Positions 5,598 to 18,640 of a stretch of 64,000 nucleotides of DNA are shown here, piece after piece (the first letter of the stretch is position 1; every line of letters begins with the position of its first letter). Made by a program: the position numbers and the translations under genes. Location: contig DAOVPY010000001.1 of NCBI GenBank assembly GCA_030628945.1, forward strand, positions 51,302 to 115,301, given 5' to 3'. The DNA comes from Candidatus Nealsonbacteria bacterium (GTDB lineage: Bacteria; Patescibacteriota; Minisyncoccia; Minisyncoccales; DAOVPY01). The notes beneath the pieces were generated by a model. It was not told the DNA's origin and searched no databases. It was given only the letters and a program-made list of their open reading frames with translations.

Positions 5598-5651
5598 TGG
5601 CAAGAAAAATAATATTTTTAAAAAGATATATTAAAAACCCTATAAAATAAA

Positions 5652-5683: not shown

Positions 5684-5687
5684 ATTG

Positions 5688-5771
5688 TGCCGCGGGTGGG
5701 ACTCGAACCCACACGAGGTTGCCCTCACACGGTTTTGAACCGTGCGCGTAAGCCAATTCCGCCACCGCGGC
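5688..5771 (-). tRNA. tRNA-Leu (anticodon CAA), type II with long variable arm
   Basis: Reverse complement reads GCCGCGGTGGCGGAATTGGCTTACGCGCACGGTTCAAAACCGTGTGAGGGCAACCTCGTGTGGGTTCGAGTCCCACCCGCGGCA. Acceptor stem is GCCGCGG/CCGCGGC. Anticodon stem CACGG/CCGTG has loop TTCAAAA (CAA). T-arm GGTTCGAGTCC. No encoded CCA. Confidence 0.85.
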
Positions 5772-5836
5772 GTGATTTAACTTTACCAAAAATTTCGCTA
5801 TTTGTAAATTCAAAAAATTTGTGTTATGGTAATTTA

Positions 5837-6631: not shown

Positions 6632-6643
6632 TTAAAATCTTTA

Positions 6644-6678
6644 GTTACAAGTTACAAGTTACAAGTTACAAGTTACAT
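6644..6678. repeat. Heptanucleotide tandem repeat GTTACAA x ~5, ending in and overlapping the parB ATG (GTTACATGCG)
   Basis: Direct read: gttacaa gttacaa gttacaa gttacaa gttacat. Confidence 0.9.
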
Positions 6679-7558
6679 GCGAAATTCTTTTGGCAAAGGT
6701 ATTGAGTCCTTAATTCCAAAAAAATCAGGCAAAACCGATGCGGTTTTTCCTTCTAAAACAGAGGCGGTTTTTTTTATTGAAATTGAAAAAATTAGACCCA
6801 ATCCTTACCAGCCCAGGAAAGAATTTGACCCGGAAGGACTTCAGTCCTTGGCTGATTCAATTCAGGAACATGGAATTTTACAACCTTTGATTGCTTCCAA
6901 GATTGAAAAAGACGTAGCGGGCGGCAGGCAGGTTAGATACGAATTAATCGCCGGCGAGAGAAGATTGCTTGCGGCAAAAATGTGTGGTTTAACCCAGGTG
7001 CCGCTCATCATCAGGGAGCCCACTGAACAGGAAAAATTAGAGGTTTCTTTAATTGAAAATGTTCAGCGACGGGATTTAAATCTGATGGAAAAAGCCGAAG
7101 CGTATAAAAAATTGGAGCAGGATTTTCATTTCAGTCATCCCGCGATTGCCAAAATGGTGGGAGTGAGCAGGCCTGTGATAAGCAATGCCCTGAGAGTTCT
7201 TAATCTGCCCGAAGAAATAAAACAGGCGGTGAGAGAGGAGAAAATCACAGACGGCCATACCAGAGCGATTTTAATGGCAAAAGAGCCGGAAAAACAAAAA
7301 AATCTTTTTTCCAAAATTTTAAGGGACCGCTTAAACGTAAGGGAAGCCGAAGCAATGGCTCAGAAATTAGAGGTCTGGCAGCCCAAGCCAAGAACAATAA
7401 AATTCAGGGAAGAATTTAAAGAACTGGAACAAAAAGCCAAAGAAATTTTAGGCATTGAGTCACTTAAATTCGGAATGGAAATTAACCGTCCAAAATTAAC
7501 AATTTTGTTTAACACAAAAAAACAAATAGAAGATTTACTAGATAGATTTAAACATTGA
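6677..7558 (+). CDS. parB: Chromosome partitioning protein ParB/Spo0J
   Basis: ParB box motifs IRPNPYQPRKEF and LIAGERRLLAAK, plus HTH. Confidence 0.9.
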   Translation: MRNSFGKGIESLIPKKSGKTDAVFPSKTEAVFFIEIEKIRPNPYQPRKEFDPEGLQSLADSIQEHGILQPLIASKIEKDVAGGRQVRYELIAGERRLLAAKMCGLTQVPLIIREPTEQEKLEVSLIENVQRRDLNLMEKAEAYKKLEQDFHFSHPAIAKMVGVSRPVISNALRVLNLPEEIKQAVREEKITDGHTRAILMAKEPEKQKNLFSKILRDRLNVREAEAMAQKLEVWQPKPRTIKFREEFKELEQKAKEILGIESLKFGMEINRPKLTILFNTKKQIEDLLDRFKH

Positions 7559-7561
7559 CAA

Positions 7562-7600
7562 AAATTTGACAAAAAGCAATAAAAGTGTAAAATAAAATAT
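7562..7600 (+). promoter_or_regulatory. Putative sigma-70-type promoter (two TTGACA boxes, TAAAAT -10)
   Basis: acaTTGACAaaaaTTTGACAaaaagcaataaaagtgTAAAATaaaat, upstream of the small ORF at 7636. Confidence 0.3.
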
Positions 7601-7635
7601 CGCGGTAAAGAGATTGTTGAGAGAGGATGTTAAAA

Positions 7636-7824
7636 ATGAAAAAAGAACGCAAAAAGTTTTTATCGGTACAGCGCAGGGATTTATGGGACGGTCCAGACCA
7701 ATACGATTTTTGGAATATGTCTTCAAATGATCTGAAGTATATGTTGGGACATAAACCTAAAAAAGACAGAAAAATAAAACCCGTAATAATGCTTATTTTA
7801 AGGCTAAGGGGGCATTTAAAATAA
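7636..7824 (+). CDS. Small basic hypothetical protein (62 aa)
   Basis: GAGAGG SD 8 nt upstream of ATG, preceded by the promoter-like sequence and followed by a terminator. No recognisable family. Confidence 0.25.
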   Translation: MKKERKKFLSVQRRDLWDGPDQYDFWNMSSNDLKYMLGHKPKKDRKIKPVIMLILRLRGHLK

Positions 7825-7833
7825 GCATAAACA

Positions 7834-7876
7834 TAAAAAAAACCAAGAAGAAACTTTCTTGGCTTTTACTTTTTAT
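7834..7876. terminator. Bidirectional rho-independent terminator
   Basis: AAAAAAAA-CCAAGAAG-AAAC-TTTCTTGG-CTTTTACTTTTT; it serves the convergent small ORF (+) and topA (-). Confidence 0.65.
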
Positions 7877-7917
7877 AATCGTAGAATTTGTTTTGTTCAT
7901 AATTCATAATTTTAAAT

Positions 7918-9957
7918 TCAGGGTTTTATGTGGTCGCATTCTTTATTTGAGCATTTTATTTGGCCTCTTTTTGTTTCAACCAATAAGGAATCGCACTTCG
8001 GGCATTTTTCATTAAGAGGTTTATCCCACAAAGCGAAATCGCATTCTGGATATTTGTTGCAGCCATAAAATAGTTTGCCTCTGCGAGTTCTTTTTTCCAC
8101 GATGTCTCCATCGTCGCATTTTGGGCACTTGATTCCCAAAATATTTTTTTCAAGAGGCGCGGTATGCCGGCACTTTGGAAATCCTGAGCAAGCGTAAAAT
8201 TTGCCGAATCTGCCGAGTTTAATCAAAAGGGGAGCTCCGCATTTGGGGCAGATTTTTTTTGTTTTTTGTTCCGCAATATCTTTTTTGGAAATCTCTTGTT
8301 CTTTTTGTTTCAATAACTCGGCAAAGGGTTTATAAAATTCTTTTATGACCGGAATCCATTTTTTTTCGCCTTCGGCGATTTTATCCAAGTCCTTTTCCAT
8401 TTCAGCCGTAAATTTGATATCAACGATTTCTGGGAAATGCTTTACCAGAAGGTCGTTGACTACCATTCCGATTTCAGTTGGTCGGAATTTTCTTTGTTCG
8501 TTTTTTTCAATATAATTTCTGTCCTGAATAGTGGAAATCACGGGCGCGTAAGTTGACGGTCTGCCAATTCCATTTTCTTCCAAAATTTTAATCAGGGTTG
8601 CTTCGCTGTATCTTGCCGGAGGTTGGGTGAAATGTTGAGAGGGGATAAGTTTTAACAATTCCAAAATTTCTTCAACCTTCAGCGCAGGCAATTCAGTTTC
8701 TTCATATTTGACGAGATATACTTTTAAGAAGCCATCAAATTTTAGAGTTTGCCCGGTTGCGCGAAAAGTATAATTTTTAGCCGCAATATCTATAGTAGTT
8801 GAGTCAAAAATTGCCTGGTTCATTTGAGAAGCGATAAATCTTCGCCAAATCAAATCATAAAGCCGAAATTGGTTATCTTCCAGTTTCATTTGGATTTTTA
8901 GTTTTTCAGGCGTCTTATCGGAATAACTCGGCCGTATCGCTTCATGCGCTTCCTGCGCTCCTTTTACTTTGGTTTTATATTTTCTTAAAAATCCGGCCCA
9001 GTAATTTTTTCCGAAGTTTTCTTCAATAAATTTTTTAGCCCCGAATAGAGCCAAATCAGCAATGTTCAAGGAATCGGTTCTATGATAAGTGGTGTGTCCC
9101 TTTTCATAAAGATTTTGAGCAATTCTCATTGTAAATTTTGCGGGCCAATGGAATTTTTTCCACGCTTCCTGCTGTAAAGTTGAAGTGATAAAAGGCGGCA
9201 AAGGATTTCTCTTGATTTCTTTTTTTTCAACACTGTTCACTTTAAATTCCGCGCTTTTCAGATTTTTAACAATCTCTTCTGCTTCTTTTTTCGTCTTAAT
9301 CCCCAATTTTGGAATTACTTTATCGTCTTTTTTAACTAATTTGGCGAGAAAAGATTTGGCTTGTGATTGAAGTTCTGCTTCAATATTCCAGTATTTTTCC
9401 GGTTTGAACTTTTCAATTTCTCGTTCCCGTTCGCAAACCAGACGAACTGCCACTGACTGCACCCGTCCGGCTGATAATCCTCTGGCAACCTTTTTCCAGA
9501 GAAAAGGGGATAGTTTATAGCCTACCAAGCGGTCTAAAATTCTTCTCGCCTGTTGCGCGTCAACAAGATTTATATCAAGAGCGCGCGGATTTTTTAGAGC
9601 CGCTTCAATCGCCGATTTTGTGATTTCGTGAAAAGCGATTCTTTGATAATTTTTATCATCACCCAAATTTAAAATTTGGGCGAGGTGCCAGGCAATGGCT
9701 TCTCCTTCTCTGTCCTCGTCTGTGGCCAAAATAACTGAATCCGCTTTTTCTGCTTCTTTTTTCAAAATATTTACATTTTTTCTGGCTTTCAGAGGGATAA
9801 CATATTTTGGTTTGAAATTATTTTCTGTTTCTATCCCAAGTTCACCCTTCGGCAGGTCGCGAATATGGCCGTAGGAAGACAAGACCTTGTACTTAGGCCC
9901 TAAAAATCCTTGGATAGTCCGACATTTTGTCGGCGACTCTACTACAACTAAGTTCAT
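7918..9957 (-). CDS. topA: DNA topoisomerase I with C-terminal zinc-ribbon repeats
   Basis: TOPRIM N-terminus (LVVVESPTKCRTI), active-site region, and three C-terminal CxxC...CxxC zinc ribbons (CPKCGAPLLIK..., CPKCDDGDIV..., CPKCDSLLVE...). Confidence 0.95.
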   Translation of the reverse strand: MNLVVVESPTKCRTIQGFLGPKYKVLSSYGHIRDLPKGELGIETENNFKPKYVIPLKARKNVNILKKEAEKADSVILATDEDREGEAIAWHLAQILNLGDDKNYQRIAFHEITKSAIEAALKNPRALDINLVDAQQARRILDRLVGYKLSPFLWKKVARGLSAGRVQSVAVRLVCEREREIEKFKPEKYWNIEAELQSQAKSFLAKLVKKDDKVIPKLGIKTKKEAEEIVKNLKSAEFKVNSVEKKEIKRNPLPPFITSTLQQEAWKKFHWPAKFTMRIAQNLYEKGHTTYHRTDSLNIADLALFGAKKFIEENFGKNYWAGFLRKYKTKVKGAQEAHEAIRPSYSDKTPEKLKIQMKLEDNQFRLYDLIWRRFIASQMNQAIFDSTTIDIAAKNYTFRATGQTLKFDGFLKVYLVKYEETELPALKVEEILELLKLIPSQHFTQPPARYSEATLIKILEENGIGRPSTYAPVISTIQDRNYIEKNEQRKFRPTEIGMVVNDLLVKHFPEIVDIKFTAEMEKDLDKIAEGEKKWIPVIKEFYKPFAELLKQKEQEISKKDIAEQKTKKICPKCGAPLLIKLGRFGKFYACSGFPKCRHTAPLEKNILGIKCPKCDDGDIVEKRTRRGKLFYGCNKYPECDFALWDKPLNEKCPKCDSLLVETKRGQIKCSNKECDHIKP

Positions 9958-9977
9958 AAAAATTAAAAATTAAAAAT

Positions 9978-10874
9978 TTAGCGCGATAGCGCGTACACGC
10001 TTCCTCCCAAATCCCTTACTTTATTTTTTATTTCTAACGCAATAAGGGCGCTTGCCACAGCAGAGGCGGGCAGTTTTGTTTTTTCAATAATTTTGTCAAT
10101 ATTCAACCCACCTTGTTTTAATGCGTCCAAAATTAAATTTTCTTCTTCATTTTCTCCTTTTGTTTCTTGTTTAAGGTAGAACCTTAAACATTGGAGATTA
10201 AGTTCTTGCAGAATGTCGTTGGGTCTGTCAACTAATTTTGCGCCATTTTTGATTAAATCGTTTGGGCCATTGGAATTAAGCGAATGAATTGGTCCGGGCA
10301 GGGCAAAAACTTTTCGTTTCTGCTCGCGGGCGCAGCGCGCGGTAATTAAAGCGCCGCTTTTGTATTTTGCCTCTATCACCAAAACGCCCAGACAAAGTCC
10401 GGAAATTATCCGATTTCTTGAAGGAAAGTTGCCTTTATATCCGGGCGTACCAGGCGGAAATTCTGAAATCACCGCGCCGTTATTCGCGACAATTTCTCTG
10501 GCTAATTTTATGTTTTCCTGCGGGTAAATACTTTTCTCGTCAATTCCGGTTCCTAAAACAGCAATGGTTTTTCCTTTTTGTTCAAGACAGGTTTGATGCG
10601 CCCAGGAATCAATTCCTTTTGCCATCCCGCTAACAATAATAAGCCCGGCTTCTGTTAGAGCACTGACTATTTCCAGAGTTGCCTGTTTTCCGTAATCCGA
10701 GCATCTTCTTGTGCCAACCACGGCAAAACATGGTGTTTTGCCAAGAGTTAAATTTCCTTTCACGTAAAGTTTTGCCGGCGCGTTAGGGATTTTTTTGAGG
10801 ATTTTTGGATATTCCTTGTCCTTAATAGTAATAGTTTTGATTTTTCCGTTGTTAGAGCTTGACATAATTAACAA
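9978..10874 (-). CDS. dprA: DNA processing protein DprA (Smf)
   Basis: Rossmann-like DprA core (GxARGIDxxAH: MAKGIDSWAHQ), ~300 aa. Confidence 0.85.
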   Translation of the reverse strand: MLIMSSSNNGKIKTITIKDKEYPKILKKIPNAPAKLYVKGNLTLGKTPCFAVVGTRRCSDYGKQATLEIVSALTEAGLIIVSGMAKGIDSWAHQTCLEQKGKTIAVLGTGIDEKSIYPQENIKLAREIVANNGAVISEFPPGTPGYKGNFPSRNRIISGLCLGVLVIEAKYKSGALITARCAREQKRKVFALPGPIHSLNSNGPNDLIKNGAKLVDRPNDILQELNLQCLRFYLKQETKGENEEENLILDALKQGGLNIDKIIEKTKLPASAVASALIALEIKNKVRDLGGSVYALSR

Positions 10875-11085
10875 GGTGTGTATAATATAATGTTAGATGA
10901 TTTTGTCAAATTTTTGCTTTTTGGTCTGCCTGCGAGTTGTCCTTTTTAGACGATCCCTCCTTATGTCTGATAGGGCGCGAGTTTAGGGTTAAGGACTGAT
11001 GTTTTTAATTCTAACGCTTGCGGGTAGGCCAGAGAGCAGAAAAAGAAAAATAGTTCTCTGAAAATCAAATAGGAGGTAATGTAAT

Positions 11086-11244
11086 ATGGGAGCAGGATAT
11101 GGTGGCGATTTAACCGCAGAAGAAGAAAGAAAAAGAAAAGGGGAACTCAAGAAAGAAAAAAGATCCGCTACAATAGCAATGCTAATAGGGCCTTCGCTGT
11201 GTATTTTATGTGGAGTAGTTCTTTGGTGCACAAGGTATTTTTGA
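11086..11244 (+). CDS. Small hypothetical membrane protein (52 aa)
   Basis: Strong SD AGGAGGT 10 nt upstream of ATG. Charged N-terminus then hydrophobic helix (IAMLIGPSLCILCGVVLWC). Not in the ORF track (<60 aa). Confidence 0.25.
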   Translation: MGAGYGGDLTAEEERKRKGELKKEKRSATIAMLIGPSLCILCGVVLWCTRYF

Positions 11245-11526
11245 GATTGTTAAAAATTTAGGAGATGAAAAACAAGAAATGGCGAAAAGCGTGAAAGCTT
11301 TTATTCTTTATAATTCATCAAGCACGGATATTTTGAAGCCATATGCAGTAATCTTGGCGGTTTCGCGCGAAGAAGCTGTTAAAAAGGCGGAAGAATTATT
11401 GATGAGCAAAGAATTTTTACTGAATGAAGTTCCACTGGTGGTGGAGTAATAAGAGTTAATAAAGCAAGCGAGGTATAATGGTGAGGATTTTTCCGAACCA
11501 TTCGCCTCGTTTTTATTTTCTGAGAT

Positions 11527-12096
11527 TCATTTGTTAAATTTATTCATTGCTTTTTCCACGCCTTGTTGTGTTGCCATTTCAATCGCCTCACAGGTTTTGT
11601 TAATTACTTCTTTAATAATCCCTTCTTCATTTTTGGTAAATTTTTGCAGGACAAATTTTTCCACATTTTTTGGCTTTCCTTTTTCGGGCCGGACGCCTAT
11701 TCTGAAACGGATGAAATTTTTCGCTTTCAATTCATGAATGATTGATTCCACGCCTTTGTGCCCCGCGGCTCCGCGGTTTTTTATGATTTTTATTTTTCCA
11801 AGCGGTAAATCAATATCATCGTGAATCACCCAAATTTTTGTAACTTGTAACTTGTAACTTAAAACCAATTTCTTTACTGAACCTCCAGAGTTGTTCATAA
11901 ACGTCTGGGGTTTTGCCAGGATTATTTTTTGGTTTTCAATTATTCCTTTGGAAATTTGAGCATTGAAAATTGATTGAAAATTGAAAATTGAAAATTGAAA
12001 ATTAGCGGCAATTTTATCCACTATTCTAAACCCGAGATTGTGCCGGGTTTTTTTATATTTTTCGCCTGGATTTCCCAGACCAACAATTAAAATCAT
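11527..12096 (-). CDS. pth: Peptidyl-tRNA hydrolase carrying two in-frame heptamer-repeat-encoded insertions
   Basis: GLGNPG...TRHNLGF N-terminal signature. Sense-strand repeats AAGTTAC x3 encode KLQVTKI and TTTTCAA x5 encode FQFSIFNFQSIF. Confidence 0.9.
   Translation of the reverse strand: MILIVGLGNPGEKYKKTRHNLGFRIVDKIAANFQFSIFNFQSIFNAQISKGIIENQKIILAKPQTFMNNSGGSVKKLVLSYKLQVTKIWVIHDDIDLPLGKIKIIKNRGAAGHKGVESIIHELKAKNFIRFRIGVRPEKGKPKNVEKFVLQKFTKNEEGIIKEVINKTCEAIEMATQQGVEKAMNKFNK
11838..11860. repeat. Heptanucleotide tandem repeat TTGTAAC x3.3 (reverse complement of GTTACAA) inside the pth CDS
   Basis: Direct read: ttgtaac ttgtaac ttgtaac tt. Same unit as the parA-parB junction repeat. Confidence 0.9.
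11963..12001. repeat. Heptanucleotide tandem repeat TTGAAAA x4 plus one spaced copy inside the pth CDS
   Basis: Direct read: ttgaaaa t tga ttgaaaa ttgaaaa ttgaaaa ttgaaaa. Confidence 0.9.
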
Positions 12097-12131
12097 TTTA
12101 ATATTATATCACTATTTTTAAATTTAGATAA

Positions 12132-12169
12132 ACCCTGTTAAATAGTTGCGAAGCAAATTTAACAGGGTA
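12132..12169. repeat. Small palindromic element with CCCTGTTAAA / TTTAACAGGG terminal inverted repeats (family copy 1)
   Basis: aCCCTGTTAAATagttgcgaagcaaATTTAACAGGGta, in the divergent region between pth and the 12207 gene. Confidence 0.7.
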
Positions 12170-12206
12170 AATATTGGAAGTTTTCCCCAGGGATTTTTCT
12201 TTTTAG

Positions 12207-13160
12207 ATGTGGTACAATAAATTAATGAACACCAAACCTTTATCACTCATACTCGGCGTCTTGGCAATGACAGGATTACTCAGTTACGTTGTCCTTGCCT
12301 GGACCGAGCCGTCTGTTGGTCCGCCCGGAGGCAATGTGACTCCGCCAATAAATACAGGAATAAATTATCAAGCCAAAGACGGGGATTTAGGTTTAAGAAC
12401 CTTTTACACAGACGATATCAAGATTGGAGGAGCTATCCCTGGCTTATATTCCGCGCACGGAAATCTAATCATCAAGAATAGCAGCAACAACACCACCCTG
12501 GAAATAGACGGCAGCACAGGCAATCTAAAGGTCAAAGATAGTTCAGGCGTCTTGGATTCTCTTTTTTCCAACGGAATTATTAAGGAGAAATTTTTGCCCT
12601 ATTGCGAGGAAGAAATAACCAGCGATGTTTATACCAATGGACAGAGCCAGGCAACCGGATGCAATTTTGGCGGGTATGACGGTTATTACAATATTTCCAA
12701 CTTAATCCCGGAAAACGTTAAAACCGGTGTGAGTTTTGGAAGGGGAGAGATAGGGGCGTTAGAAATATCAGAGATATTAGAGCAAGGCTGTGTGCTATTA
12801 GAAGGTAGTGGAAATTGCGTGCTTTGTAATACCGATTGTCCATCCGGATATACAGATAAGGGGAATTTGGATTTGATAAAAGAGCAGGGCTCTGGTATTT
12901 GTCACCTCGGAACCTCCAGAAACAACTACTACCGTCGTGGTAGTGTTGCGGGTTTTATTCGCTGTCTTGGCGGCAGGAGTGCCGACTGTAGGGATTGTAG
13001 TGGCAGGGGTGCCGCCAGTTCCTGTGTAGTTGAATATGGTGAATGTGCAATAGGAGAAAGGACAGGTGTAATGGTACATAGCGTGACCCATCCGCAAGGA
13101 AACCAGAGTAGGGTATATGACTGTCGTTGTATCCTGACCTTTAAATACTGTTGTCCCTAA
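12207..13160 (+). CDS. Secreted/membrane-anchored cysteine-rich hypothetical protein
   Basis: N-terminal hydrophobic anchor (LSLILGVLAMTGLLSYVVLAW). About 20 Cys in the C-terminal third (CVLCNTDCPSGY...CRDCSGRG...YDCRCILTFKYCCP). Confidence 0.4.
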   Translation: MWYNKLMNTKPLSLILGVLAMTGLLSYVVLAWTEPSVGPPGGNVTPPINTGINYQAKDGDLGLRTFYTDDIKIGGAIPGLYSAHGNLIIKNSSNNTTLEIDGSTGNLKVKDSSGVLDSLFSNGIIKEKFLPYCEEEITSDVYTNGQSQATGCNFGGYDGYYNISNLIPENVKTGVSFGRGEIGALEISEILEQGCVLLEGSGNCVLCNTDCPSGYTDKGNLDLIKEQGSGICHLGTSRNNYYRRGSVAGFIRCLGGRSADCRDCSGRGAASSCVVEYGECAIGERTGVMVHSVTHPQGNQSRVYDCRCILTFKYCCP

Positions 13161-13208
13161 GGGAAAAAATTGGGAGCAGTTCTATTTTTTGATTCTATTT
13201 TAAAATTT

Positions 13209-13236
13209 AAGCCCGCGCTTTCGGCGCGGGCTTTTC
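13209..13236 (+). terminator. Rho-independent terminator
   Basis: AAGCCCGCGC-TTTC-GGCGCGGGCTT followed by TTCC/T-rich sequence. Confidence 0.6.
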
Positions 13237-13277
13237 CAAAACCAGTTTCAAAAAATGTTTTACAAAAATAAAAAACT

Positions 13278-13859
13278 TTGTTAATATGTAGAAACATGAA
13301 AATCCTAAAAAACACCTTATTATTTTTTTGGGAAATCAGCAAGATAGTTATTATCGCGCTGCTGATAGTTGTTCCTATCCGCTATTTTATTTTTCAGCCA
13401 TTTTTTGTGAGGGGCCAGAGCATGGAACCGAATTTTCACAGCGGCGATTATCTGATTGTTGATGAAATTTCTTATCGTTTTACAGAACCAGCGAGAGGAG
13501 AGGTAATTGTGTTTAAGTATCCGCAGGACTCTTCTCAACGTTATATTAAAAGAATTATCGGTTTGCCCGGAGAAACAGTGGAAGTAAGAAAAGGAGAAGT
13601 AATAATTCAAACGAATGGTTCATTGAGCCGGCAATATGTTTTAGACGAGACAAATTATCTCGCTGATATTGTTCAGACTCCGGGTAGTATTAGTATTTCA
13701 TTAAGCGAGAGCGAATATTTTGTTTTAGGCGATAACAGGTCCTTTTCTTCTGATTCCAGGCGCTGGGGAGCGGTTTCCGAGGATGAAATTGTTGGCAGGG
13801 TGCTTCTGAGGATGTGGCCTTTTTTTGCTTTTGCTAAAATTGAAGCGCCGGGTTACTAG
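13278..13859 (+). CDS. lepB: Signal peptidase I
   Basis: Motifs GQSMEPNF (catalytic Ser), YIKRIIGLPGE (catalytic Lys region), GDNRSFSSDSRRWG. Start may be the ATG at 13296. Confidence 0.85.
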   Translation: MLICRNMKILKNTLLFFWEISKIVIIALLIVVPIRYFIFQPFFVRGQSMEPNFHSGDYLIVDEISYRFTEPARGEVIVFKYPQDSSQRYIKRIIGLPGETVEVRKGEVIIQTNGSLSRQYVLDETNYLADIVQTPGSISISLSESEYFVLGDNRSFSSDSRRWGAVSEDEIVGRVLLRMWPFFAFAKIEAPGY

Positions 13860-13886
13860 ATTCTCGCCTCGCTTTATTATAAGAAT

Positions 13887-15212
13887 ATGAGGAGACCAAA
13901 ATTTCAAAAACCAACCGGAATGCGCGATATTTTGCCGGAAGAGCAAAAGTATTTCCGAAAAATTTACGACACAGCGGAAAATATTGCTAATTTTTACGGT
14001 TTTCAAAAAATTGAAACGCCGATTGTGGAAGATGCCGAACTTTTTATTCGGGGGACCGGGCAATACACTGATATTATTGAGAAAGAAATGTACACTCTTC
14101 GGACCAAAGGAGGAGATTTGTTAGCTCTCCGGCCAGAGGGAACTCCGGGAATAGTAAGGGCTTACATTGAGAATGGGATGTTTAATCTGCCTTCGCCGGT
14201 GAAACTCTGGTATTTCGGCCCTTATTTTCGTTATGAACGTCCACAGGCGGGAAGGTTTCGCCAGTTCCATCATTTAGGATTTGAAGTTTTTAAGGAAAGA
14301 AGCCCTATTATTGATGTCCGGATTATTCAAATTTTTTATAATATTTTAAAGGAATTAAAATTTAAGAATTTAGTAATTAAAGTTAACAGTATTGGCGACA
14401 GTCAATGCCGGCCATATTACCGAAAACTTTTAGTAAGTTATTTTAAATCTCGGGAGGCGTTATTTTGTTTTAATTGCCGGAGAAGAATTAAAAAAAATCC
14501 TTTGCGAGTTTTGGATTGTAAAGAAGAAAAGTGCCAAAAAATTGTTAGTCAGGCGCCTCAGCTTATTGACCATCTTTGCGAGGAGTGCCATGCTCATTTT
14601 AGGGGCGTCTTAGAGTTTTTGGATGAAATTGAGATGCCTTATCAGTTAGATCCTTATTTAGTGCGCGGCTTGGATTATTACACCAAAACCGTTTTTGAGA
14701 TAATTGAGGACAGGCAGATGGTCAATGTTATTGAAGAAACTGAAAACAAAGAAGAAAAGCCAAAACCAGAGCCCCTGTCTTTAGTCGGCGGAGGGAGATA
14801 CGATGGTTTGGTGAAATTATTGGGAAGAAAAGACACGCCGGCCTGCGGCGGAGCCGCGGGCATAGAAAGAATAGTAAATCTTTTGAAAATTAAAAACGCA
14901 AAATTTTTCCAACCTCCGCGCGCAAAGATTTTTTTAGCGCAGCTGGGAGATTTAGCCAAGAAGAAATGCCTAAAACTCTTTGAAGATTTTAGGAAAGCGA
15001 ATATTATGATTGAGGAGTCGTTCAGCAAGGATTCTTTGAAAATTCAGTTGAAAATCGCTAACAGGCTGGGAGTGAATTATACTTTAATTTTTGGCCATAA
15101 AGAGGTTTTAGATAACACAATTATCATAAGAGAGATGAAGAGCGGCAGACAAGAAACAGTAAAAATGGACAAGGTGGTGGATGTGATGAAAAGAAAATTA
15201 AAGAAATCCTGA
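13887..15212 (+). CDS. hisS: Histidyl-tRNA synthetase
   Basis: Class II motifs: RDILPEE, FRYERPQAGRFRQFHQ, GGGRYDGL, and a C-terminal anticodon-binding domain. Confidence 0.95.
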   Translation: MRRPKFQKPTGMRDILPEEQKYFRKIYDTAENIANFYGFQKIETPIVEDAELFIRGTGQYTDIIEKEMYTLRTKGGDLLALRPEGTPGIVRAYIENGMFNLPSPVKLWYFGPYFRYERPQAGRFRQFHHLGFEVFKERSPIIDVRIIQIFYNILKELKFKNLVIKVNSIGDSQCRPYYRKLLVSYFKSREALFCFNCRRRIKKNPLRVLDCKEEKCQKIVSQAPQLIDHLCEECHAHFRGVLEFLDEIEMPYQLDPYLVRGLDYYTKTVFEIIEDRQMVNVIEETENKEEKPKPEPLSLVGGGRYDGLVKLLGRKDTPACGGAAGIERIVNLLKIKNAKFFQPPRAKIFLAQLGDLAKKKCLKLFEDFRKANIMIEESFSKDSLKIQLKIANRLGVNYTLIFGHKEVLDNTIIIREMKSGRQETVKMDKVVDVMKRKLKKS

Positions 15213-15216
15213 TAAT

Positions 15217-15573
15217 ATGCCCTGCTTGTTCTGTAAAATTATAAATAAGAAAGCGCGCGCGGATATAATCTATGAGGATGCTGAATTTTTGGTTTTTAAG
15301 AGCATAAAGCCGGTTGCGCCCATTCATATTTTGCTCGTTCCCAGAAAACATATTCCTTCCGCGCAACACTTAAAATCAGAAGATAAAGAATTAATCGGGG
15401 AGTTATTTTTACTTGCTGGAAAAATAGCCAAAAAACAAAACATTAGCAAAAAGGGCTATAAGCTGGTTTTTAACGTAGGCAAAGGAGGAGGACAAGTGAT
15501 TAATCATTTACACCTGCATTTGCTCGGTGGCTGGAAAACAGCCAAACAAAGAAATATTCCCGGAATGCCATAA
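15217..15573 (+). CDS. HIT-family (histidine triad) nucleotide hydrolase
   Basis: HLHLHLLGG histidine triad. CxxC near the N-terminus. Confidence 0.85.
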   Translation: MPCLFCKIINKKARADIIYEDAEFLVFKSIKPVAPIHILLVPRKHIPSAQHLKSEDKELIGELFLLAGKIAKKQNISKKGYKLVFNVGKGGGQVINHLHLHLLGGWKTAKQRNIPGMP

Positions 15574-15597
15574 AGAAAATTTTTTAATTTTTAGATT

Positions 15598-15816
15598 ATG
15601 TTGGAAGTTAAACGGAAAAAAAGAGAAAGCAATCAAAGTTTAGTCTACCGCTTTGGCAGAGGAGTTCAAAAAAGCGGAATTTTGTTTAGGAAAAGAAAAA
15701 TTCGCTTTCGCCAACATTCCAAAAGCGAGTATGCCCAAAAAAAAGCGACCCTGAGAAAGGAGGAACTAAAAAAAGAATATGAGAAATTGAAGAAATTAGG
15801 CAGGTTAAAGGATTAG
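15598..15816 (+). CDS. rpsU: Probable ribosomal protein bS21
   Basis: 72-aa highly basic protein. The pattern V.R....ES....RF.R....KSGIL...RK......PS..R..K matches S21. Confidence 0.5.
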   Translation: MLEVKRKKRESNQSLVYRFGRGVQKSGILFRKRKIRFRQHSKSEYAQKKATLRKEELKKEYEKLKKLGRLKD

Positions 15817-15819
15817 ATT

Positions 15820-16287
15820 ATGATTGAAATTAATAATTTGACAACCAATTCCGTGAGCGAGGATTTTTTGAGAAGAATTGCTAAAATAGTATTAGAGGGC
15901 GAGGGCAAGAAAGAGGTTGGTTTGTCCATTGCTTTTGTGGGACAGGGAAGAATGAGAGAAATTAATAAGAAGTACCGGAAAAAAAATCGCGTTACCGATG
16001 TTTTGGCTTTTCCGGAGTCAAAGGTCTTGTTGGAAAAATTTAGAGTAGGGCTTTTTCAAAAGGTTCAGGGATTGGGAGAAATAATTATTTGTTTGCGCGA
16101 GGTTAAAAAGAACGCCAAAAAATTTAAATCCTCGTTTGACAAGGAATTGGCAAAAGTTTTAATTCATGGGATTCTGCATCTCTTGGGATACGACCACGAG
16201 AAGTCGGAAACAGAGGCAGAGAAGATGAAGGAGAAAGAGGAGTGCTATCTATCTCGTCTTAAAACTACGGACTCAAATGACCAATGA
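15820..16287 (+). CDS. ybeY: rRNA maturation endoribonuclease YbeY
   Basis: HGILHLLGYDH zinc-binding motif. Confidence 0.85.
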   Translation: MIEINNLTTNSVSEDFLRRIAKIVLEGEGKKEVGLSIAFVGQGRMREINKKYRKKNRVTDVLAFPESKVLLEKFRVGLFQKVQGLGEIIICLREVKKNAKKFKSSFDKELAKVLIHGILHLLGYDHEKSETEAEKMKEKEECYLSRLKTTDSNDQ

Positions 16288-16295
16288 CTAATTTC

Positions 16296-16380
16296 TAATT
16301 TCTAATCAAATCCCAAATCCCAATTTCTAAATTTTTTGGACATTGGACATTGGGTATTGATTAGACATTAGGTTAATTAG
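16296..16380. repeat. Intergenic patchwork of short 7-bp tandem duplications (TAATTTC x2.5, AAATCCC x2, TGGACAT x2, TTAGG-containing units) upstream of ftsA
   Basis: Direct read: taatttctaatttctaatc aaatcccaaatccca ... ttggacattggacattggg ... ttagacattaggttaattaggaattag. Confidence 0.8.
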
Positions 16381-16395
16381 GAATTAGAAATTTTT

Positions 16396-17649
16396 ATGGC
16401 GAAGCCGTATATTATTACTGGTTTAGACATCGGAACAAGTTCTATAAAAGCCCTTGCTGCTTTAAAAAAACCAGACTCGCCGAGTTTGGAGGTTTTAGTT
16501 CAGTTACGGGAGCCGGTTTTGGGCATGAGAAAAGGGGTAGTGGCTGACGTTGACGCGGTTTCAAAAAGCGTAATTCAGGTTTTATCTCAACTTGAAGAGA
16601 AAATTAATCAAAAGATTGAAGACGTTTATGTTAATATAAACGGGGGACATATTTTTACGCGGTTCTCTCATGGGTCGGTGGTGGTTTCCAGGGCTGACAA
16701 AAAAATTTCCGAGGAAGATGTTAATAGAGTAATCCAATCGGCGCAGGCGTTTTCCCTGCCATTAAACAAAGAAATTTTAGAGATTTTTCCAAAAGAATTT
16801 GTTATTGACGGAGAGTCCGGGATAAAACAAGCCCTGGGAATGGAGGGGATACGGTTGGAAGTTGAAATTTTGGCGCTCGGCGCTTTCTCTCCTTCTTTAA
16901 AAAATTTAACCAATGCCGTTCTGAACGCGGATGTTCAAATTGCTGACATTATTCCCTCTCCTCTGGCTTCGGCAAGGTCTGTTTTAACTCCCCAGCAAAA
17001 AGAGTTGGGCGTTTGCCTGCTGGATATCGGCGCCGGAACCACGGGCATGTCAGTGTACGGAGAAGGAAATTTGATTCAGCTTGCTGTTTTGCCGCTTGGT
17101 TCCTCGCACATTACCAATGATATTGCCATTGGTTTGAAAACCGATATTAATATTGCGGAGCAGATAAAGCGGGAGTTTGGGACTTGTGGTTTTTCTAATT
17201 CCCAAAAGCGGCCATTTCAGGGAAAAGAGATAAAAATCAAACCATCCGAAGAATCTTCTTCTTTGGAGTTTTCCCGGAAAATGTTGGCGGATATTATAGA
17301 ATCAAGAGTTTCTGAAATTTTTGATTTAATCAAAAAACAGCTTAAAGAGATTTCTTCTTCCCTTCCGGCAGGCGTGGTTCTCACCGGCGGCGGTTCAAAA
17401 CTGCCCGGAATTGTCGCTTTTGCCAAAAAGGAATTAAAATTGCCGGTTCGTCTGGGCGCGCCCTGGGTTCGTTCCGAGCCGAAACAGGGTTTAGATGAGC
17501 CGGAATGGTCCGGGTTGGAAGAGAATCCAATTCTTGCGACAGTTTGCGGTTTGGTTCTGATGGGAAAGGATTTAGGAGCCGAAGATAAAAAAAACCGAAA
17601 AGGAATTTTCGGGAAATTGAAAAAATTTTTAAGAGAATTTATTCCCTAA
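16396..17649 (+). CDS. ftsA: Cell division protein FtsA
   Basis: Actin-fold ATPase motifs (GLDIGTSSIKAL; DIGAGTT; LTGGGSKLPG). Confidence 0.9.
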   Translation: MAKPYIITGLDIGTSSIKALAALKKPDSPSLEVLVQLREPVLGMRKGVVADVDAVSKSVIQVLSQLEEKINQKIEDVYVNINGGHIFTRFSHGSVVVSRADKKISEEDVNRVIQSAQAFSLPLNKEILEIFPKEFVIDGESGIKQALGMEGIRLEVEILALGAFSPSLKNLTNAVLNADVQIADIIPSPLASARSVLTPQQKELGVCLLDIGAGTTGMSVYGEGNLIQLAVLPLGSSHITNDIAIGLKTDINIAEQIKREFGTCGFSNSQKRPFQGKEIKIKPSEESSSLEFSRKMLADIIESRVSEIFDLIKKQLKEISSSLPAGVVLTGGGSKLPGIVAFAKKELKLPVRLGAPWVRSEPKQGLDEPEWSGLEENPILATVCGLVLMGKDLGAEDKKNRKGIFGKLKKFLREFIP

Positions 17650-17661
17650 ATAACTATAATT

Positions 17662-18612
17662 ATGCCATCAAAAATTTTATCATCGCCAAAAATTAAAGTA
17701 ATAGGCGTTGGCGGTTCCGGCGGGAACGCTGTTTCGCGGATGTTTGAATGCCAGATTCGGGGCGTAGATTTGATTGCCGTGAATACGGATGTCCAGGATA
17801 TTCAGAGAGTAAAAGCCCATCAGAAAATACGGATTGGAAAGCGCCTCACCGAAGGTTTGGGCACGGGGATGAATCCGGATTTGGGCAGGCGGGCGGCGCT
17901 GGAGAACAGAAAGGAACTTAACGAGGTTTTAAAGGGTTCGGATATGGTTTTTGTCACCTGCGGCTTGGGCGGCGGAACCGGTTCCGGCGCTTCGCCGGTT
18001 ATTGCGGAAATTGCCAAACAACTGGGCGCTTTAACTATTGCCGTGGTTACAAAGCCTTTTTCTTTTGAGGGCTTGCAGCGAATAAAAACCGCTCAGAAAA
18101 GTTTAGAAGCGTTAAAAAATAAAGTGGATACTCTGCTTACTATTCCCAATGACAAGTTGCTGTCTCGGGCAGATAAAGAAACAACCTTGATTAAAGCGTT
18201 CTGGACCTGCGATGAAGTTCTGCGCCAGGCCGTGCAGGGGATTTCTGATTTAATTGTCCTGCCGGGAATAGTAAATGTTGATTTCGCGGACGTCAAAGCT
18301 ATTATGAAAGGTTCGGGTCAGGCGCTTTTTGGGATGGGAAAGGCGAGAGGCGAGAATAGAATTGAACAAGCGGTGGAACAGGCGCTTAATTCATCCTTGC
18401 TTGATTTTTCAATTGAGGGCGCGAAAGGAGTTTTATTTAATGTAAGCGGGGGAAAAGATTTGGGATTGAAAGAGATAGACGTTGCCGCTAAAATGATTAC
18501 GAAAAATATTAAGCCAAAAGCAAAAGTAATTTTTGGAGCGGTTCAGGATAACCGGCTTCAGCCCGGAGAAGTTAAAATAACAGTAATCGCCACCGGGTTT
18601 AATAATCAATAA
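17662..18612 (+). CDS. ftsZ: Cell division GTPase FtsZ (core only, no C-terminal linker/tail)
   Basis: GGGTGSG tubulin signature; NTD, T7 loop. The protein ends immediately after the core (VIATGFNNQ). Confidence 0.9.
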   Translation: MPSKILSSPKIKVIGVGGSGGNAVSRMFECQIRGVDLIAVNTDVQDIQRVKAHQKIRIGKRLTEGLGTGMNPDLGRRAALENRKELNEVLKGSDMVFVTCGLGGGTGSGASPVIAEIAKQLGALTIAVVTKPFSFEGLQRIKTAQKSLEALKNKVDTLLTIPNDKLLSRADKETTLIKAFWTCDEVLRQAVQGISDLIVLPGIVNVDFADVKAIMKGSGQALFGMGKARGENRIEQAVEQALNSSLLDFSIEGAKGVLFNVSGGKDLGLKEIDVAAKMITKNIKPKAKVIFGAVQDNRLQPGEVKITVIATGFNNQ

Positions 18613-18628
18613 TCAATAATCAATAATA
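18601..18628. repeat. Heptanucleotide tandem repeat AATAATC x ~4 containing the ftsZ stop codon
   Basis: Direct read: aataatc aataatc aataatc aataata; the TAA stop lies in the second unit. Confidence 0.9.
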
Positions 18629-18640
18629 TTTTTTCCACAG

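What the first reader, a model, noticed from the sequence alone, without database searches (positions are those of the whole stretch)
6644..18628. Genome-wide signature of 7-bp tandem duplications, including identical GTTACAA arrays at the parA-parB junction, inside pth and inside a GT gene
Heptamer tandem arrays occur in at least twelve places in 64 kb, with units GTTACAA, TTGAAAA, AATAATC, TAATTTC, AAATCCC, TGGACAT, AAACTAC, GGTTTCA and CAACCGA. The GTTACAA array (x5) ends in the parB start codon (GTTACATGCG). Its exact reverse complement (TTGTAAC x3.3) and a TTGAAAA x5 array are translated in-frame within the essential gene pth (KLQVTKI and FQFSIFNFQSIF insertions in the normally variable part of Pth downstream of the GNPG/TRHN motif). 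An AATAATC x4 array contains the ftsZ stop codon. The 16296-16380 spacer upstream of ftsA is a mosaic of three different 7-mer duplications. A uniform unit length across unrelated sequences argues for a specific mechanism (a 7-bp staggered-cut target-site duplication from an unseen mobile element, or a slippage bias) rather than selection at each site.
Basis: seen in the sequence. Interest (0 to 1): 0.65.

Follow-up and report, generated by a model that had tools for sequence, protein, structure and literature searches.

The report
Heptamer tandem repeats in a Parcubacteria genome
This uncultured ultra-small bacterium (Patescibacteria, Nealsonbacteria-like) is unusually rich in short tandem arrays of 7-base units, between genes and in frame inside them; this is a dense new example of a repeat bias already known in other bacteria, not the trace of a hidden transposon.

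Summary
The window has 16 perfect period-7 arrays of at least 2.5 copies, against about 0.1 expected, and nothing comparable at periods 5, 6 or 8. The source is a Nealsonbacteria-like Patescibacteria metagenome scaffold.

Eleven of the 16 arrays lie inside intact genes. Nine are in the six GT4 glycosyltransferase genes and two are in pth. All are stop-free on the sense strand.

The pth segments are not insertions: Pth is 189 aa and aligns end to end with solved Pth structures. In 9 of the 10 closest relatives the same pth site carries a heptamer array with a different unit and the same protein length.

The transposon target-site-duplication idea is not supported. There is no excess of exact two-copy duplications, no transposase was detected, and the window's palindromic elements have no 7-bp duplications. 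A slippage-type bias in a 7-nt register, filtered by selection, fits best. It matches the published over-representation of heptanucleotide repeats in bacteria (Mrázek 2007; cyanobacterial STRR, Xanthomonas and Beggiatoaceae repeats).

Extras: small GC-rich hairpin inserts sit inside several arrays, and arrays are concentrated in GT4 genes (P about 1e-5).

Verdict: new member of a known kind, moderate interest.

The parts
6643..6677 (+). AGTTACA x5.0, perfect. It lies in the parA-parB spacer, and its last base is the A of the parB ATG.
   Evidence: ParA and ParB Pfam hits
9957..9978 (-). AATTTTT x3.1 on the sense strand. It fills the whole dprA-topA spacer, overlapping the dprA TAA stop and the topA ATG.
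   Evidence: gene identities
11838..11860 (-). AAGTTAC x3.3 on the sense strand, in frame in pth (peptide LSYKLQVTK). Relatives carry heptamer arrays with other units at the same site.
11951..12003 (-). AATTTTC array on the sense strand (perfect x4.4 at 11973-12003), in frame in pth. It encodes NFQFSIFNFQSIF, a peptide conserved in dozens of homologs.
16288..16353 (+). Mosaic of CTAATTT x2.7, CAAATCC x2.4 and TTGGACA x2.6 in the ybeY-ftsA spacer. In relatives this spacer is overlapping or 26 nt long, or is filled with GC-rich hairpins instead.
18601..18627 (+). AATAATC x3.9. It adds NNQ and a new TAA stop to FtsZ (relatives end ...ATGF or ...ATNFLK) and fills the spacer up to a conserved TTTTCCACAG motif.
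42084..42101 (-). ACAAAAT x2.6 on the sense strand, in frame in GT4 gene 41654-42916 (peptide LNTKYKI).
42466..42560 (-). One AAACTAC/CAAACTA array (sense strand) in GT4 gene 41654-42916, split by a hairpin insert of about 36 nt, CCCCGC...GCGGGG, at about 42501-42536. The array stays in phase across the insert, and the insert is translated as PAKFANAHRGAG.
50033..50059 (+). AGGTTTC x3.9, in frame in the interdomain linker of GT4 gene 49442-50728 (peptide RFQVSGSRF).
51222..51255 (+). ACAACCG x4.9, in frame in the linker of GT4 gene 50691-51791 (peptide TTDNRQPTTDDQ).
53415..53474 (+). AATTTTC x2.7 (53415-53433) followed by a hairpin insert of about 41 nt, CCCTGGACCCCGCTTCGCAGCGGGGG...AGGG, and then an array remnant (TTTTCAATTATTG). 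All lie in frame in GT4 gene 52776-53915.
53524..53553 (+). AGTTGCA/AGTTATA/AGTTACA x4.3 (86% matches), in frame in GT4 gene 52776-53915 (peptide ELQVASYKLQD).
54386..54428 (+). CAAACTA x6.1 (perfect x5.6), the longest array, in frame in the linker of GT4 gene 53912-54973 (peptide QTTNYKLQTTNYKIL).
   Evidence: identical in a second sample
57963..57996 (+). AAACTAC x4.9 (88% matches), in frame in GT4 gene 57211-58371 (peptide KNYKLQTANYEL).

Best explanation
These are heptanucleotide simple-sequence repeats. They are made by a mutational bias that acts in a 7-nt register, and selection then filters what survives. They occur in a Nealsonbacteria-like Patescibacteria genome.

**Shown**
1. Only period 7, and its harmonic 14, is in excess.
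2. The excess lies in arrays of at least 2.5 copies, not in simple two-copy duplications.
3. Density falls with phylogenetic distance. Perfect arrays of at least 2.5 copies per 100 kb number 25 in the window, 8.6 in relatives with at least 59% Pth identity, 2.2 in more distant relatives and 1.6 in the most distant. Even the most distant set is above chance.
4. Intergenic arrays fill whole short spacers and supply start or stop codon bases. They are absent from the corresponding spacers in relatives.
5. Intragenic arrays use only units that are stop-free on the sense strand. They lie in variable loops or linkers. Length changes at these sites tend to fall in steps of 7 aa (3 units) or not to occur at all.
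6. At one pth loop the array is orthologous across the clade. The units differ between species but are uniform within each array, which is concerted evolution.

**Inferred**
- The events are replication slippage or misaligned repair. The 7-nt preference would reflect the length of primer-template held by the polymerase, as Mrázek et al. proposed in 2007.
- Homogenisation without length change would come from misaligned conversion within the array.
- Recurrent units (AAACTAC at 4 sites, AGTTACA at 3) could arise because common coding motifs such as Y-K-L-Q (TACAAnnTACAA) are already 7-nt proto-repeats.
For: - Period-specific excess.
- No excess in the 2.0-2.5 copy class (8 observed, 7.4 expected).
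- Density gradient across about 890 kb of window and related loci, with period 8 at zero everywhere.
- Organism and synteny.
- pth site 2: lag-7 identity is 0.54-0.86, against about 0.3 at other lags, in 9 of the 10 closest loci. Units there include AAGTTAC, AACTTAC, AAATTAG, AAAATTA, AAATCTT, AAATACA and AATATCT, with unchanged protein length. Periodicity is lost below about 55% identity.
- In 120 Pth homologs, identity at a lag of 7 aa averages 0.28 against 0.04-0.10 at other lags. Twenty-three proteins show at least 4 of 8 matches at lag 7, and none do at any other lag.
- Pth aligns end to end with solved structures.
- GT4 loop lengths in homologs peak at 5 aa (6 proteins) and 12 aa (29 proteins), with peptides such as YKIQNTKYKIQ and YKLKTKNYQLKT.
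- Stop-codon filter.
- FtsZ end and spacers compared with relatives.
- Literature: heptanucleotide repeats are the most abundant long-SSR class in repeat-rich prokaryotes, and the polymerase-contact slippage idea is already published.
Against: - No slippage event was observed. The three samples that carry this organism hold the same strain, with identical arrays, so copy-number instability is inferred and not shown.
- A one-unit slip inside pth would be a lethal frameshift. Simple slippage therefore does not explain how units are homogenised there without a change in length.
- Nothing in the data explains why the register is 7 and not 6 or 8.
- Units recur far more often than random sampling of heptamers would allow (AAACTAC at 4 sites, AGTTACA at 3, AATTTTC at 2). 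This could mean sequence-specific function or copying between loci instead.
- Only 64 kb of the genome was examined.
Confidence: 0.6

Rival explanations
1. Contingency loci. The arrays in the glycosyltransferase genes would be frameshift switches (one unit more or less equals +/-7 nt) that turn surface-glycan genes on and off, as simple repeats do in Haemophilus, Neisseria and Campylobacter.
For: Nine of 16 arrays lie in the six GT4 genes, which make up 11% of the window (binomial P = 1.3e-5). Every GT4 gene has at least one array, whereas the epimerase, aminotransferase, deacetylase and flippase genes of the same cluster have none. Seven is not a multiple of 3, so any single-unit change shifts the frame.
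Against: No copy-number difference was seen between samples, but these are the same strain, so the test is weak. The arrays are short (2.6-5.6 perfect copies). The same kind of array sits in the essential gene pth, where switching off makes no sense. The GT4 arrays lie in loops that are hypervariable in length across homologs, so they may simply be tolerated there.
Confidence: 0.15
2. Footprints of a mobile element. Insertion with a 7-bp staggered cut, followed by excision, would leave a 7-bp duplication, and repeated cycles would build arrays. A variant is that the small GC-rich hairpin inserts found inside arrays are that element.
For: Hairpin inserts sit exactly inside arrays and keep the array in phase. 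This is what a 0-bp or a 7-bp target duplication would give (window 42501-42536 and 53434-53474; L099, L097 and L098 in pth).
Against: There is no excess of exact two-copy duplications. No transposase or integrase domain was found among the ORFs scanned. The palindromic elements outside arrays show no 7-bp duplication. Most arrays have no insert. The pth array is orthologous across species, with uniform units and unchanged length.
Confidence: 0.07
3. Selected cis-elements. The arrays would be binding sites for a protein or RNA that recognises repeated heptamers. Examples are the proposed post-transcriptional role of TAACTGA repeats upstream of start codons in Beggiatoaceae, and the TTTTGAT heptads in the cholera toxin promoter.
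For: Two arrays end exactly on a start codon (parB, topA). A few units recur at several loci. MacGregor 2015 proposes such a role for TAACTGA.
Against: There are at least 12 different units with no common core. Eleven of 16 arrays are inside genes. The intergenic arrays are absent from the same spacers in relatives. No promoter-like signal above chance was found in the ftsA spacer.
Confidence: 0.08
4. Assembly or sequencing artefact, or protein-level selection for 7-residue peptide repeats.
For: Two Logan contigs both end 31 nt upstream of ftsA, next to the heptamer mosaic. This shows that repeats can disturb assembly.
Against: The same arrays occur in independent assemblies of three samples and in homologs from many unrelated metagenomes. 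Five arrays are non-coding. Perfect nucleotide identity across all three reading frames is not what protein-level selection produces.
Confidence: 0.02

Closest known systems
Heptanucleotide long simple sequence repeats of prokaryotes (Mrázek, Guo & Shah 2007, PNAS; known to me only through the summaries read)
   Same: Both are tandem arrays of 7-nt units, longer than chance allows, at many loci. Seven is the dominant unit length among 5-11 nt. The published explanation is also a polymerase-slippage bias in a 7-nt register.
   Different: The host is a Patescibacteria lineage. No paper in the searchable library links that group with heptamer repeats. Most arrays here are in frame inside genes, whereas units that are not multiples of 3 were reported as mainly non-coding. 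The density in the window is 25 per 100 kb. That is roughly ten times the reported Xanthomonas figure (186 arrays) or the Beggiatoaceae figure (169 sets), taking those genomes as about 5 Mb from memory.
Cyanobacterial STRR heptamers (Calothrix, Nostoc, Anabaena) and the small dispersed repeats (SDR) embedded in them (Elhai et al. 2008, Genome Res 18:1484; reference confirmed, content from memory)
   Same: Both have several different heptamer units per genome, at many loci. Very small hairpin-forming elements are found nested inside the heptamer arrays.
   Different: The STRR units CCCCAGT, TTGGTCA and CAACAGT do not occur in tandem in the window. STRRs are mostly intergenic. The organism is unrelated. 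The inserts here are 29-60 nt, GC-rich and of CCC...GGG form, and are translated in frame. Their mobility has not been shown.
TAACTGA direct repeats of marine Beggiatoaceae, some Cyanobacteria and some Bacteroidetes (MacGregor 2015, PMC4679880)
   Same: Both are short heptamer arrays of 2-6 copies, and some lie immediately upstream of start codons.
   Different: In that case a single unit dominates and related heptamers are rare. Here at least 12 units occur, TAACTGA is never in tandem, and most arrays are intragenic.
Phase-variable simple-sequence contingency loci in glycosyltransferase genes of host-adapted bacteria
   Same: Both are out-of-frame repeat units inside surface-polysaccharide glycosyltransferase genes.
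   Different: Known cases use 1-5 nt units with many copies and show population polymorphism. No polymorphism was seen here.
Rickettsia palindromic elements (RPE) and REP/REPIN-type miniature palindromes (RPE from memory; REPIN paper PMC3116915)
   Same: This comparison concerns the side finding. Both are small palindromic elements inserted in frame into protein-coding genes and tolerated in surface loops.
   Different: The elements here are much shorter than RPEs, no associated transposase (RAYT-like) was seen in the window, and they are often located inside heptamer arrays.

Membership tests
Heptanucleotide long SSRs (Mrázek 2007 sense) | Head-to-tail direct repeats with a 7-nt unit | tested here: met
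   22 TRF rows with period 7; 16 perfect arrays of at least 2.5 copies
Heptanucleotide long SSRs (Mrázek 2007 sense) | Arrays longer or more numerous than expected for the genome's composition | tested here: met
   16 observed against 0.1 expected (at least 2.5 copies) and 8 against 0 (at least 3 copies) in dinucleotide-preserving shuffles; 11 against 0 for imperfect arrays
Heptanucleotide long SSRs (Mrázek 2007 sense) | Period 7 dominates over other periods in the 5-11 nt range | tested here: met
   At the 2.5-copy threshold, periods 5, 6, 8, 9 and 10 give 4, 3, 0, 1 and 0 arrays. The same pattern holds in 150 kb of close relatives.
Heptanucleotide long SSRs (Mrázek 2007 sense) | Genome-wide distribution | tested here: inconclusive
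   Arrays are spread over 6.6-58 kb of the window and occur in relatives' loci. Only 64 kb of the 316-kb scaffold could be read, and an attempt to extend beyond the window failed.
Cyanobacterial STRR | Unit sequences STRR1 CCCCAGT, STRR2 TTGGTCA, STRR3 CAACAGT in tandem | tested here: not met
   No tandem occurrence of any of the three units
Cyanobacterial STRR | Host is a heterocystous cyanobacterium | tested here: not met
   Homologs are named Patescibacteria, Parcubacteria or Ca. Nealsonbacteria. FtsA is present.
TAACTGA repeat system (Beggiatoaceae) | A single dominant unit, TAACTGA, in direct repeats | tested here: not met
   TAACTGA occurs 10 times singly and never in tandem
Transposon target-site-duplication footprints | Exact two-copy duplications of the target length | tested here: not met
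   The 2.0-2.5 copy class holds 8 arrays against 7.4 expected. The excess is all in longer arrays.
Transposon target-site-duplication footprints | A transposase or recombinase, or elements flanked by 7-bp direct repeats | tested here: not met
   No such Pfam domain in about 50 ORFs scanned. Four palindromic elements have no 7-bp flanking repeat. This covers the window only, and seven ORFs had no Pfam hit.
Phase-variable contingency loci | Out-of-frame repeat unit within or upstream of surface-structure genes | tested here: met
   Nine arrays in six GT4 genes, P = 1.3e-5
Phase-variable contingency loci | Copy-number polymorphism within populations or between close strains | tested here: inconclusive
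   Arrays are identical in contigs from three samples, but the flanking sequence is identical too, so this is the same strain. Reads are not available.
SDR-like mini-elements nested in heptamer repeats (Elhai 2008) | Very small dispersed repeats with conserved secondary structure, embedded in tandem heptamers | tested here: inconclusive
   Five hairpin inserts lie inside arrays. Related CCCGCC...GGCGGG hairpins occur in several loci of the clade. Family structure, copy number and mobility were not established.

The most novel reading that the evidence does not exclude
The lineage may have more than a passive slippage bias. Heptamer arrays would be kept and homogenised at the same in-frame sites over long evolutionary distances, as at the pth loop and the GT4 loops. 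They would also serve as preferred landing sites for a family of 29-60-nt GC-rich hairpin mini-elements. That would be a Patescibacteria counterpart of the SDR-in-heptamer system of Nostoc. It would work as an engine for remodelling protein surface loops and, in the six GT4 genes, possibly as frameshift switches for surface glycans.
Probability: 0.25. Interest if true: 0.7.

Novelty: new member of a known kind. Interest (0 to 1): 0.42.

Why it matters
Over-representation of heptanucleotide repeats in bacteria has been known since 2007 but has never been explained. A tiny, about 95% coding, uncultured genome with about 25 arrays per 100 kb is a compact natural test case for why the register is 7.

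Because the genome is so dense, most arrays had to land in genes. There they show how non-triplet repeats can still shape proteins: only stop-free units survive, the arrays sit only in loops, and length changes tend to fall in 7-aa steps.

The orthologous pth array, whose unit changes between species while its length does not, is a clean example of concerted evolution inside an essential gene.

If the link with hairpin mini-inserts and with glycosyltransferase genes is mechanistic, it bears on how episymbiotic Patescibacteria diversify their surface structures.

On the practical side, such arrays can break assemblies and create spurious-looking peptide repeats in protein databases.

Tried and rejected
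- **Copy-number comparison across samples.** Contigs from three samples (SAMN18200505, 06 and 07) and two Logan runs carry identical arrays, but the surrounding DNA is identical too. This is one strain and says nothing about stability.
- **Extending beyond the window.** An exact-protein look-up to sample more of the 316-kb scaffold failed. The ORF 63280-63900 is not on record as called.
- **Genome-contig scan with the single Pth protein.** It was swamped: 600 pattern matches and only 3 relatives, partly because one search pattern was the array-encoded peptide NFQFSIFN. Closer relatives were obtained through exact-protein look-ups instead.
- **Transposon footprint idea.** Rejected for the reasons given under rival explanations.
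- **Promoter and terminator scan of the ftsA spacer.** Nothing above chance.
- **Rfam scan of the window.** Only one tRNA was found, and no known RNA family overlaps any array.
- **Known heptamer units.** STRR1-3, TAACTGA, GGGAATC, GGGGATT and TTTTGAT never occur in tandem here.
- **Primary papers.** Mrázek 2007 and Elhai 2008 are not held in the library. Their content is cited second-hand or from memory.

Full report

Yes. Tandem Repeats Finder reports 76 rows for the window, and 22 of them have period 7. I counted maximal perfect tandem runs for periods 2-15 and compared them with 30 dinucleotide-preserving shuffles. For period 7:

| Threshold | Observed | Expected |
|---|---|---|
| at least 2 copies | 24 | 7.5 |
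| at least 2.5 copies | 16 | 0.1 |
| at least 3 copies | 8 | 0 |

At the 2.5-copy threshold the neighbouring periods are unremarkable:

| Period | Observed | Expected |
|---|---|---|
| 5 | 4 | 2.2 |
| 6 | 3 | 0.7 |
| 8 | 0 | 0 |
| 9 | 1 | 0 |

Allowing mismatches (at least 18 of 21 matches at a given lag) gives 11 arrays at lag 7, none at lags 5 or 8, and 5 at the harmonic lag 14.

Three corrections apply:
- The array in the glycosyltransferase gene at 53524-53553 is AGTTGCA, AGTTGCA, AGTTATA, AGTTACA. It is a relative of GTTACAA, not an identical copy.
- The pth segments are not insertions (section 4).
- An AATTTTT x3.1 array that fills the whole dprA-topA spacer, from the TAA stop to the ATG start, was missed.

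**2. Where the window comes from**

The window is the reverse complement of part of a 316-kb metagenome scaffold (ENA ERZ23498683, scaffold_6). Its Pth and glycosyltransferase proteins have their nearest named relatives in Patescibacteria, Parcubacteria and Candidatus Nealsonbacteria. The gene order around pth (lepB, hisS, HIT, ybeY, ftsA, ftsZ, nrdD on one side; dprA, topA on the other) is shared with relatives. GC content is 32-47% along the window. My greedy ORF map covers about 95% of the sequence, which overestimates the true coding fraction somewhat.

**3. Anatomy**

Of the 16 perfect arrays with at least 2.5 copies, five are non-coding:
- parA-parB spacer
- dprA-topA spacer
- two in the ybeY-ftsA spacer
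- the ftsZ stop region

Eleven lie inside intact ORFs.

*Non-coding arrays.* They make up essentially the whole of short operon spacers and lend bases to start or stop codons. Relatives do not have them:
- FtsZ ends ...ATGF or ...ATNFLK directly before the stop in four relatives. Here the AATAATC array adds NNQ and a new TAA.
- The ybeY-ftsA spacer is 26 nt in one relative and overlapping in two others. In a fourth it is 195 nt of GC-rich hairpins.

*Intragenic arrays.* Two are in pth. Nine are in the six GT4 glycosyltransferase genes of a polysaccharide cluster. Those genes are 11% of the window, so the concentration is significant (binomial P = 1.3e-5). Every GT4 gene has at least one array, and the other genes of the cluster have none.

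All 11 intragenic arrays are free of stop codons in all three frames of the sense strand. Seven of them would contain stops in the opposite orientation. Three of the five non-coding arrays do contain stop triplets. This explains why AAACTAC (4 sites), AGTTACA (3) and AATTTTC (2) are always in the same orientation relative to transcription.

**4. The pth arrays are not insertions, and they are old**

Pth is 189 aa, the modal length among 120 homologs. It aligns over its full length with solved Pth structures. Against the 189-aa chain 7y52_A there are two extra residues at the first array site and no gap at the second.

*First site.* The array-encoded peptide NFQFSIFNFQSIF is conserved in dozens of homologs of 60-72% identity. 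More distant homologs have NNFPDFKFSKKF at the same columns.

*Second site*, just before the conserved WVIHDD motif. The DNA of 9 of the 10 closest relatives (Pth identity 59-71%) is periodic at lag 7, with identity 0.54-0.86 against about 0.3 at other lags. The units differ between species:
- AAGTTAC (this genome)
- AACTTAC x4.9
- AAATTAG
- AAAATTA
- AAATCTT
- AAATACT and AAATACA
- AATATCT

Protein length is unchanged. Below about 55% identity the site reads xFYKIxxxxI and has no periodicity.

At protein level, the 15 residues at this site in 120 homologs show a mean identity of 0.28 at a lag of 7 residues, against 0.04-0.10 at other lags. Twenty-three proteins have at least 4 of 8 matches at lag 7, and none do at any other lag.

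So an array has occupied the same codons since before these species diverged, and its units change in concert. The two closely related loci L008 and L010 share nearly the same pattern of variant units, so in coding DNA these arrays are also fairly stable.

**5. The glycosyltransferase loops**

In the GT4 protein 41654-42916, two array segments and a hairpin insert lie in the loop between the conserved GSIASF and IYRIGGW motifs. In 120 homologs this loop varies greatly in length. The main peak is at 12 residues (29 proteins) and a minor one is at 5 (6 proteins), a difference of 7 aa, or three heptamers. Many loops read as translated heptamer arrays (YKIQNTKYKIQ, YKLKTKNYQLKT, YRFQVSGFKFQV). The distribution is not strictly modulo 7, so this is supportive, not conclusive.

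**6. How widespread it is**

I counted perfect arrays of at least 2.5 copies per 100 kb:

| Sequence set | Size | Period-7 arrays per 100 kb |
|---|---|---|
| This window | 64 kb | 25 |
| 12 loci, Pth identity at least 59% | 150 kb | 8.6 |
| 23 loci at 46-55% | 185 kb | 2.2 |
| 55 loci below 46% | 489 kb | 1.6 |

Expected values are at most 0.2 arrays per group in total, and period 8 gives zero arrays in every group. Heptamers are thus over-represented even in unrelated bacteria, as the literature says, and this genome is at the high end.

**7. What is known**

Two papers read here summarise Mrázek, Guo and Shah (2007). In prokaryotic genomes rich in 5-11 nt repeats, heptanucleotides were the most abundant class. 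The authors proposed that 7 nt may be the length of DNA that interacts with the polymerase, which would favour slippage. They also noted that units that are multiples of three are the ones usually found in coding regions.

Named cases are:
- the STRR heptamers of heterocystous cyanobacteria
- GGGAATC in Xanthomonas (186 arrays in one genome) and GGGGA(T/C)T in Nostoc
- TAACTGA in marine Beggiatoaceae (169 sets), often just upstream of start codons

None of those units is tandem in this window. A full-text search found no paper that combines Patescibacteria or Parcubacteria with heptamer-repeat terms.

**8. Mechanism**

The best-supported reading is a mutational bias in a 7-nt register, of the slippage or misaligned-repair type, followed by selection.

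*What supports a mutational origin:*
- The effect is specific to one period and indifferent to unit sequence.
- It occurs in coding and non-coding DNA alike.
- It grades with phylogeny.

*What shows the filter:*
- Only stop-free units survive in genes.
- Arrays sit in loops and linkers.
- Length steps tend to be 7 aa.
- Arrays are free to fill intergenic spacers.

*What is inferred:* the molecular event itself, the reason for 7, and how units are homogenised in pth without a lethal frameshift intermediate. My suggestion for the last point is conversion within a misaligned array. An alternative is expansions and deletions that net to zero or to 21 nt.

Recurrent units may reflect common seeds. 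Y-K-L-Q encoded as TACAAnnTACAA is already 1.7 copies of a heptamer, and both AAACTAC and AGTTACA arrays translate to YKLQ-containing peptides. That is my inference from the sequences.

**9. The transposon idea**

It is not supported:
- The class of 2.0-2.5 copies, where excision footprints would fall, holds 8 arrays against 7.4 expected.
- No transposase or integrase domain was found in about 50 ORFs scanned. Seven ORFs had no Pfam hit.
- The four CCCTGTTAAA...TTTAACAGGG palindromic elements have no 7-bp flanking repeats.

**10. A side finding that may matter**

Small GC-rich hairpin inserts lie inside arrays and are translated in frame.

*In the window:*
- A CCCCGC...GCGGGG element of about 36 nt splits the AAACTAC array at about 42501-42536 without breaking its phase.
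- An element of about 41 nt follows AATTTTC x2.7 at 53434-53474, with an array remnant after it.

*In pth of relatives:*
- A 29-nt hairpin, CCCCGCCCCTACCAAAGGAGGGGGCGGGG, sits inside the AATTTTC array (L099).
- A 48-nt insert sits at the same place in L097.
- A 57-nt double hairpin sits in the second array of L098.

Many other Pth and GT4 homologs show insertions of 5-20 aa at exactly these sites.

Perfect arrays cover under 1% of the window, yet two of about five in-gene hairpin inserts are in arrays. That suggests either targeting or shared permissive sites, and I cannot separate the two.

As I recall it, Elhai et al. (2008; reference confirmed, text not available) described very small dispersed repeats often embedded in tandem heptamers in Nostoc. 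That would be a close parallel.

**11. Phase variation**

The concentration in GT4 genes and the out-of-frame unit length fit the contingency-locus pattern. However, I saw no polymorphism. The only other samples carry the same strain, and the same arrays occur in essential pth. I rate this a minority possibility that read-level data could settle.

**12. Verdict**

The phenomenon belongs to a known kind, heptanucleotide simple-sequence repeats. It appears here in a lineage where I found no report of it, at unusually high density and mostly in frame inside genes. It also includes an orthologous array that evolves in concert, and a possible link to hairpin mini-inserts.

Noticed in passing
window 12133-12167, 23748-23813, 34234-34301, 50296-50357: Four copies of a small palindromic element with termini CCCTGTTAAA...TTTAACAGGG, 35-68 bp long, with internal hairpins. 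One is translated in frame inside GT4 gene 49442-50728 and splits its Pfam domain into two stretches. None has a 7-bp flanking duplication. The 10-mer TTTAACAGGG (up to 1 mismatch) matches 18 times against 7.5 expected.
   Followed up: partly
window 42501-42536 and 53434-53474; L099 5095-5123; L097 about 3085-3135; L098 about 2246-2302: GC-rich hairpin inserts (29-57 nt, CCC...GGG form) sit inside heptamer arrays and are translated in frame, in GT4 genes and in pth of relatives. Many Pth and GT4 homologs have 5-20 aa insertions at the same array sites.
   Followed up: partly
window 18724-18752 and 21704-21741; L097 4304; L099 5938; L009 3194: Related CCCGCC...GGCGGG hairpins are dispersed in the clade. 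The one at 18724 lies in frame near the 5' end of nrdD. The one at 21704 looks like an intergenic terminator.
   Followed up: no
window 5650-5682, 27792-27812, 27861-27881: The same hairpin core, GGCAGAGA(A/G)CAGGTCTCTGCC, occurs three times: once just before the parA ORF and twice inside the Lamin-tail-domain protein gene 26826-29114.
   Followed up: no
window 5688-5771 (- strand) versus ORF 5654-6631: A tRNA gene on the minus strand overlaps the first 40 or so codons of the called 325-aa parA ORF. The ParA ATPase domain starts only at residue 64, so the true parA start is probably downstream.
   Followed up: no
window 6590-6619: A perfect 14-nt tandem duplication (CTTGAAACCTATAA x2.1, twice the 7-nt unit) lies in the last codons of parA. 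It is not a multiple of 3, so it probably changed the C-terminal reading frame.
   Followed up: no
window 24485-24528 and 25248-25291; 32636-32694: Two similar perfect 20-bp-stem hairpins (ATCCATTACAAA... cores) flank the PaaX-like gene 24589-25209. A hairpin with a 22-bp stem, itself containing an 11-nt tandem repeat, lies between 32070-32633 and the sigma-factor gene.
   Followed up: no
window 27907-28084, 29145-29173, 39756-39790: In-frame 9-, 18-, 6- and 15-nt tandem repeats occur in large secreted-looking proteins (Lamin-tail-domain proteins and neighbours). These are ordinary triplet-multiple repeats, distinct from the heptamers.
   Followed up: no
window 34301-38749: A 1482-aa ORF has no Pfam hit at E <= 0.001.
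   Followed up: no
window about 18631-18640; L087, L088 and L090 downstream of ftsZ: A conserved motif, TTTTCCACAG, lies between ftsZ and nrdD in this genome and three relatives. It may be a regulatory box for nrdD.
   Followed up: no
L095 and L096 (Logan assemblies): Two independent Logan contigs both start exactly 31 nt upstream of ftsA, right after the heptamer mosaic. This suggests the repeats break k-mer assemblies or are polymorphic there.
   Followed up: no
protein P0146 (homolog of the GT4 protein encoded at window 41654-42916): In this homolog the loop that carries heptamer arrays elsewhere holds an insertion of about 150 aa with a PF13366 domain.
   Followed up: no
L006 (contig labelled Tidjanibacter sp., 55% GC) 5781, 13837, 13984: Three perfect heptamer arrays (TTTCAAT, TTGAAAA, CGGTTGA) occur in 20 kb of an unrelated Bacteroidota-labelled contig. 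This is another heptamer-rich genome or a mis-binned contig.
   Followed up: no
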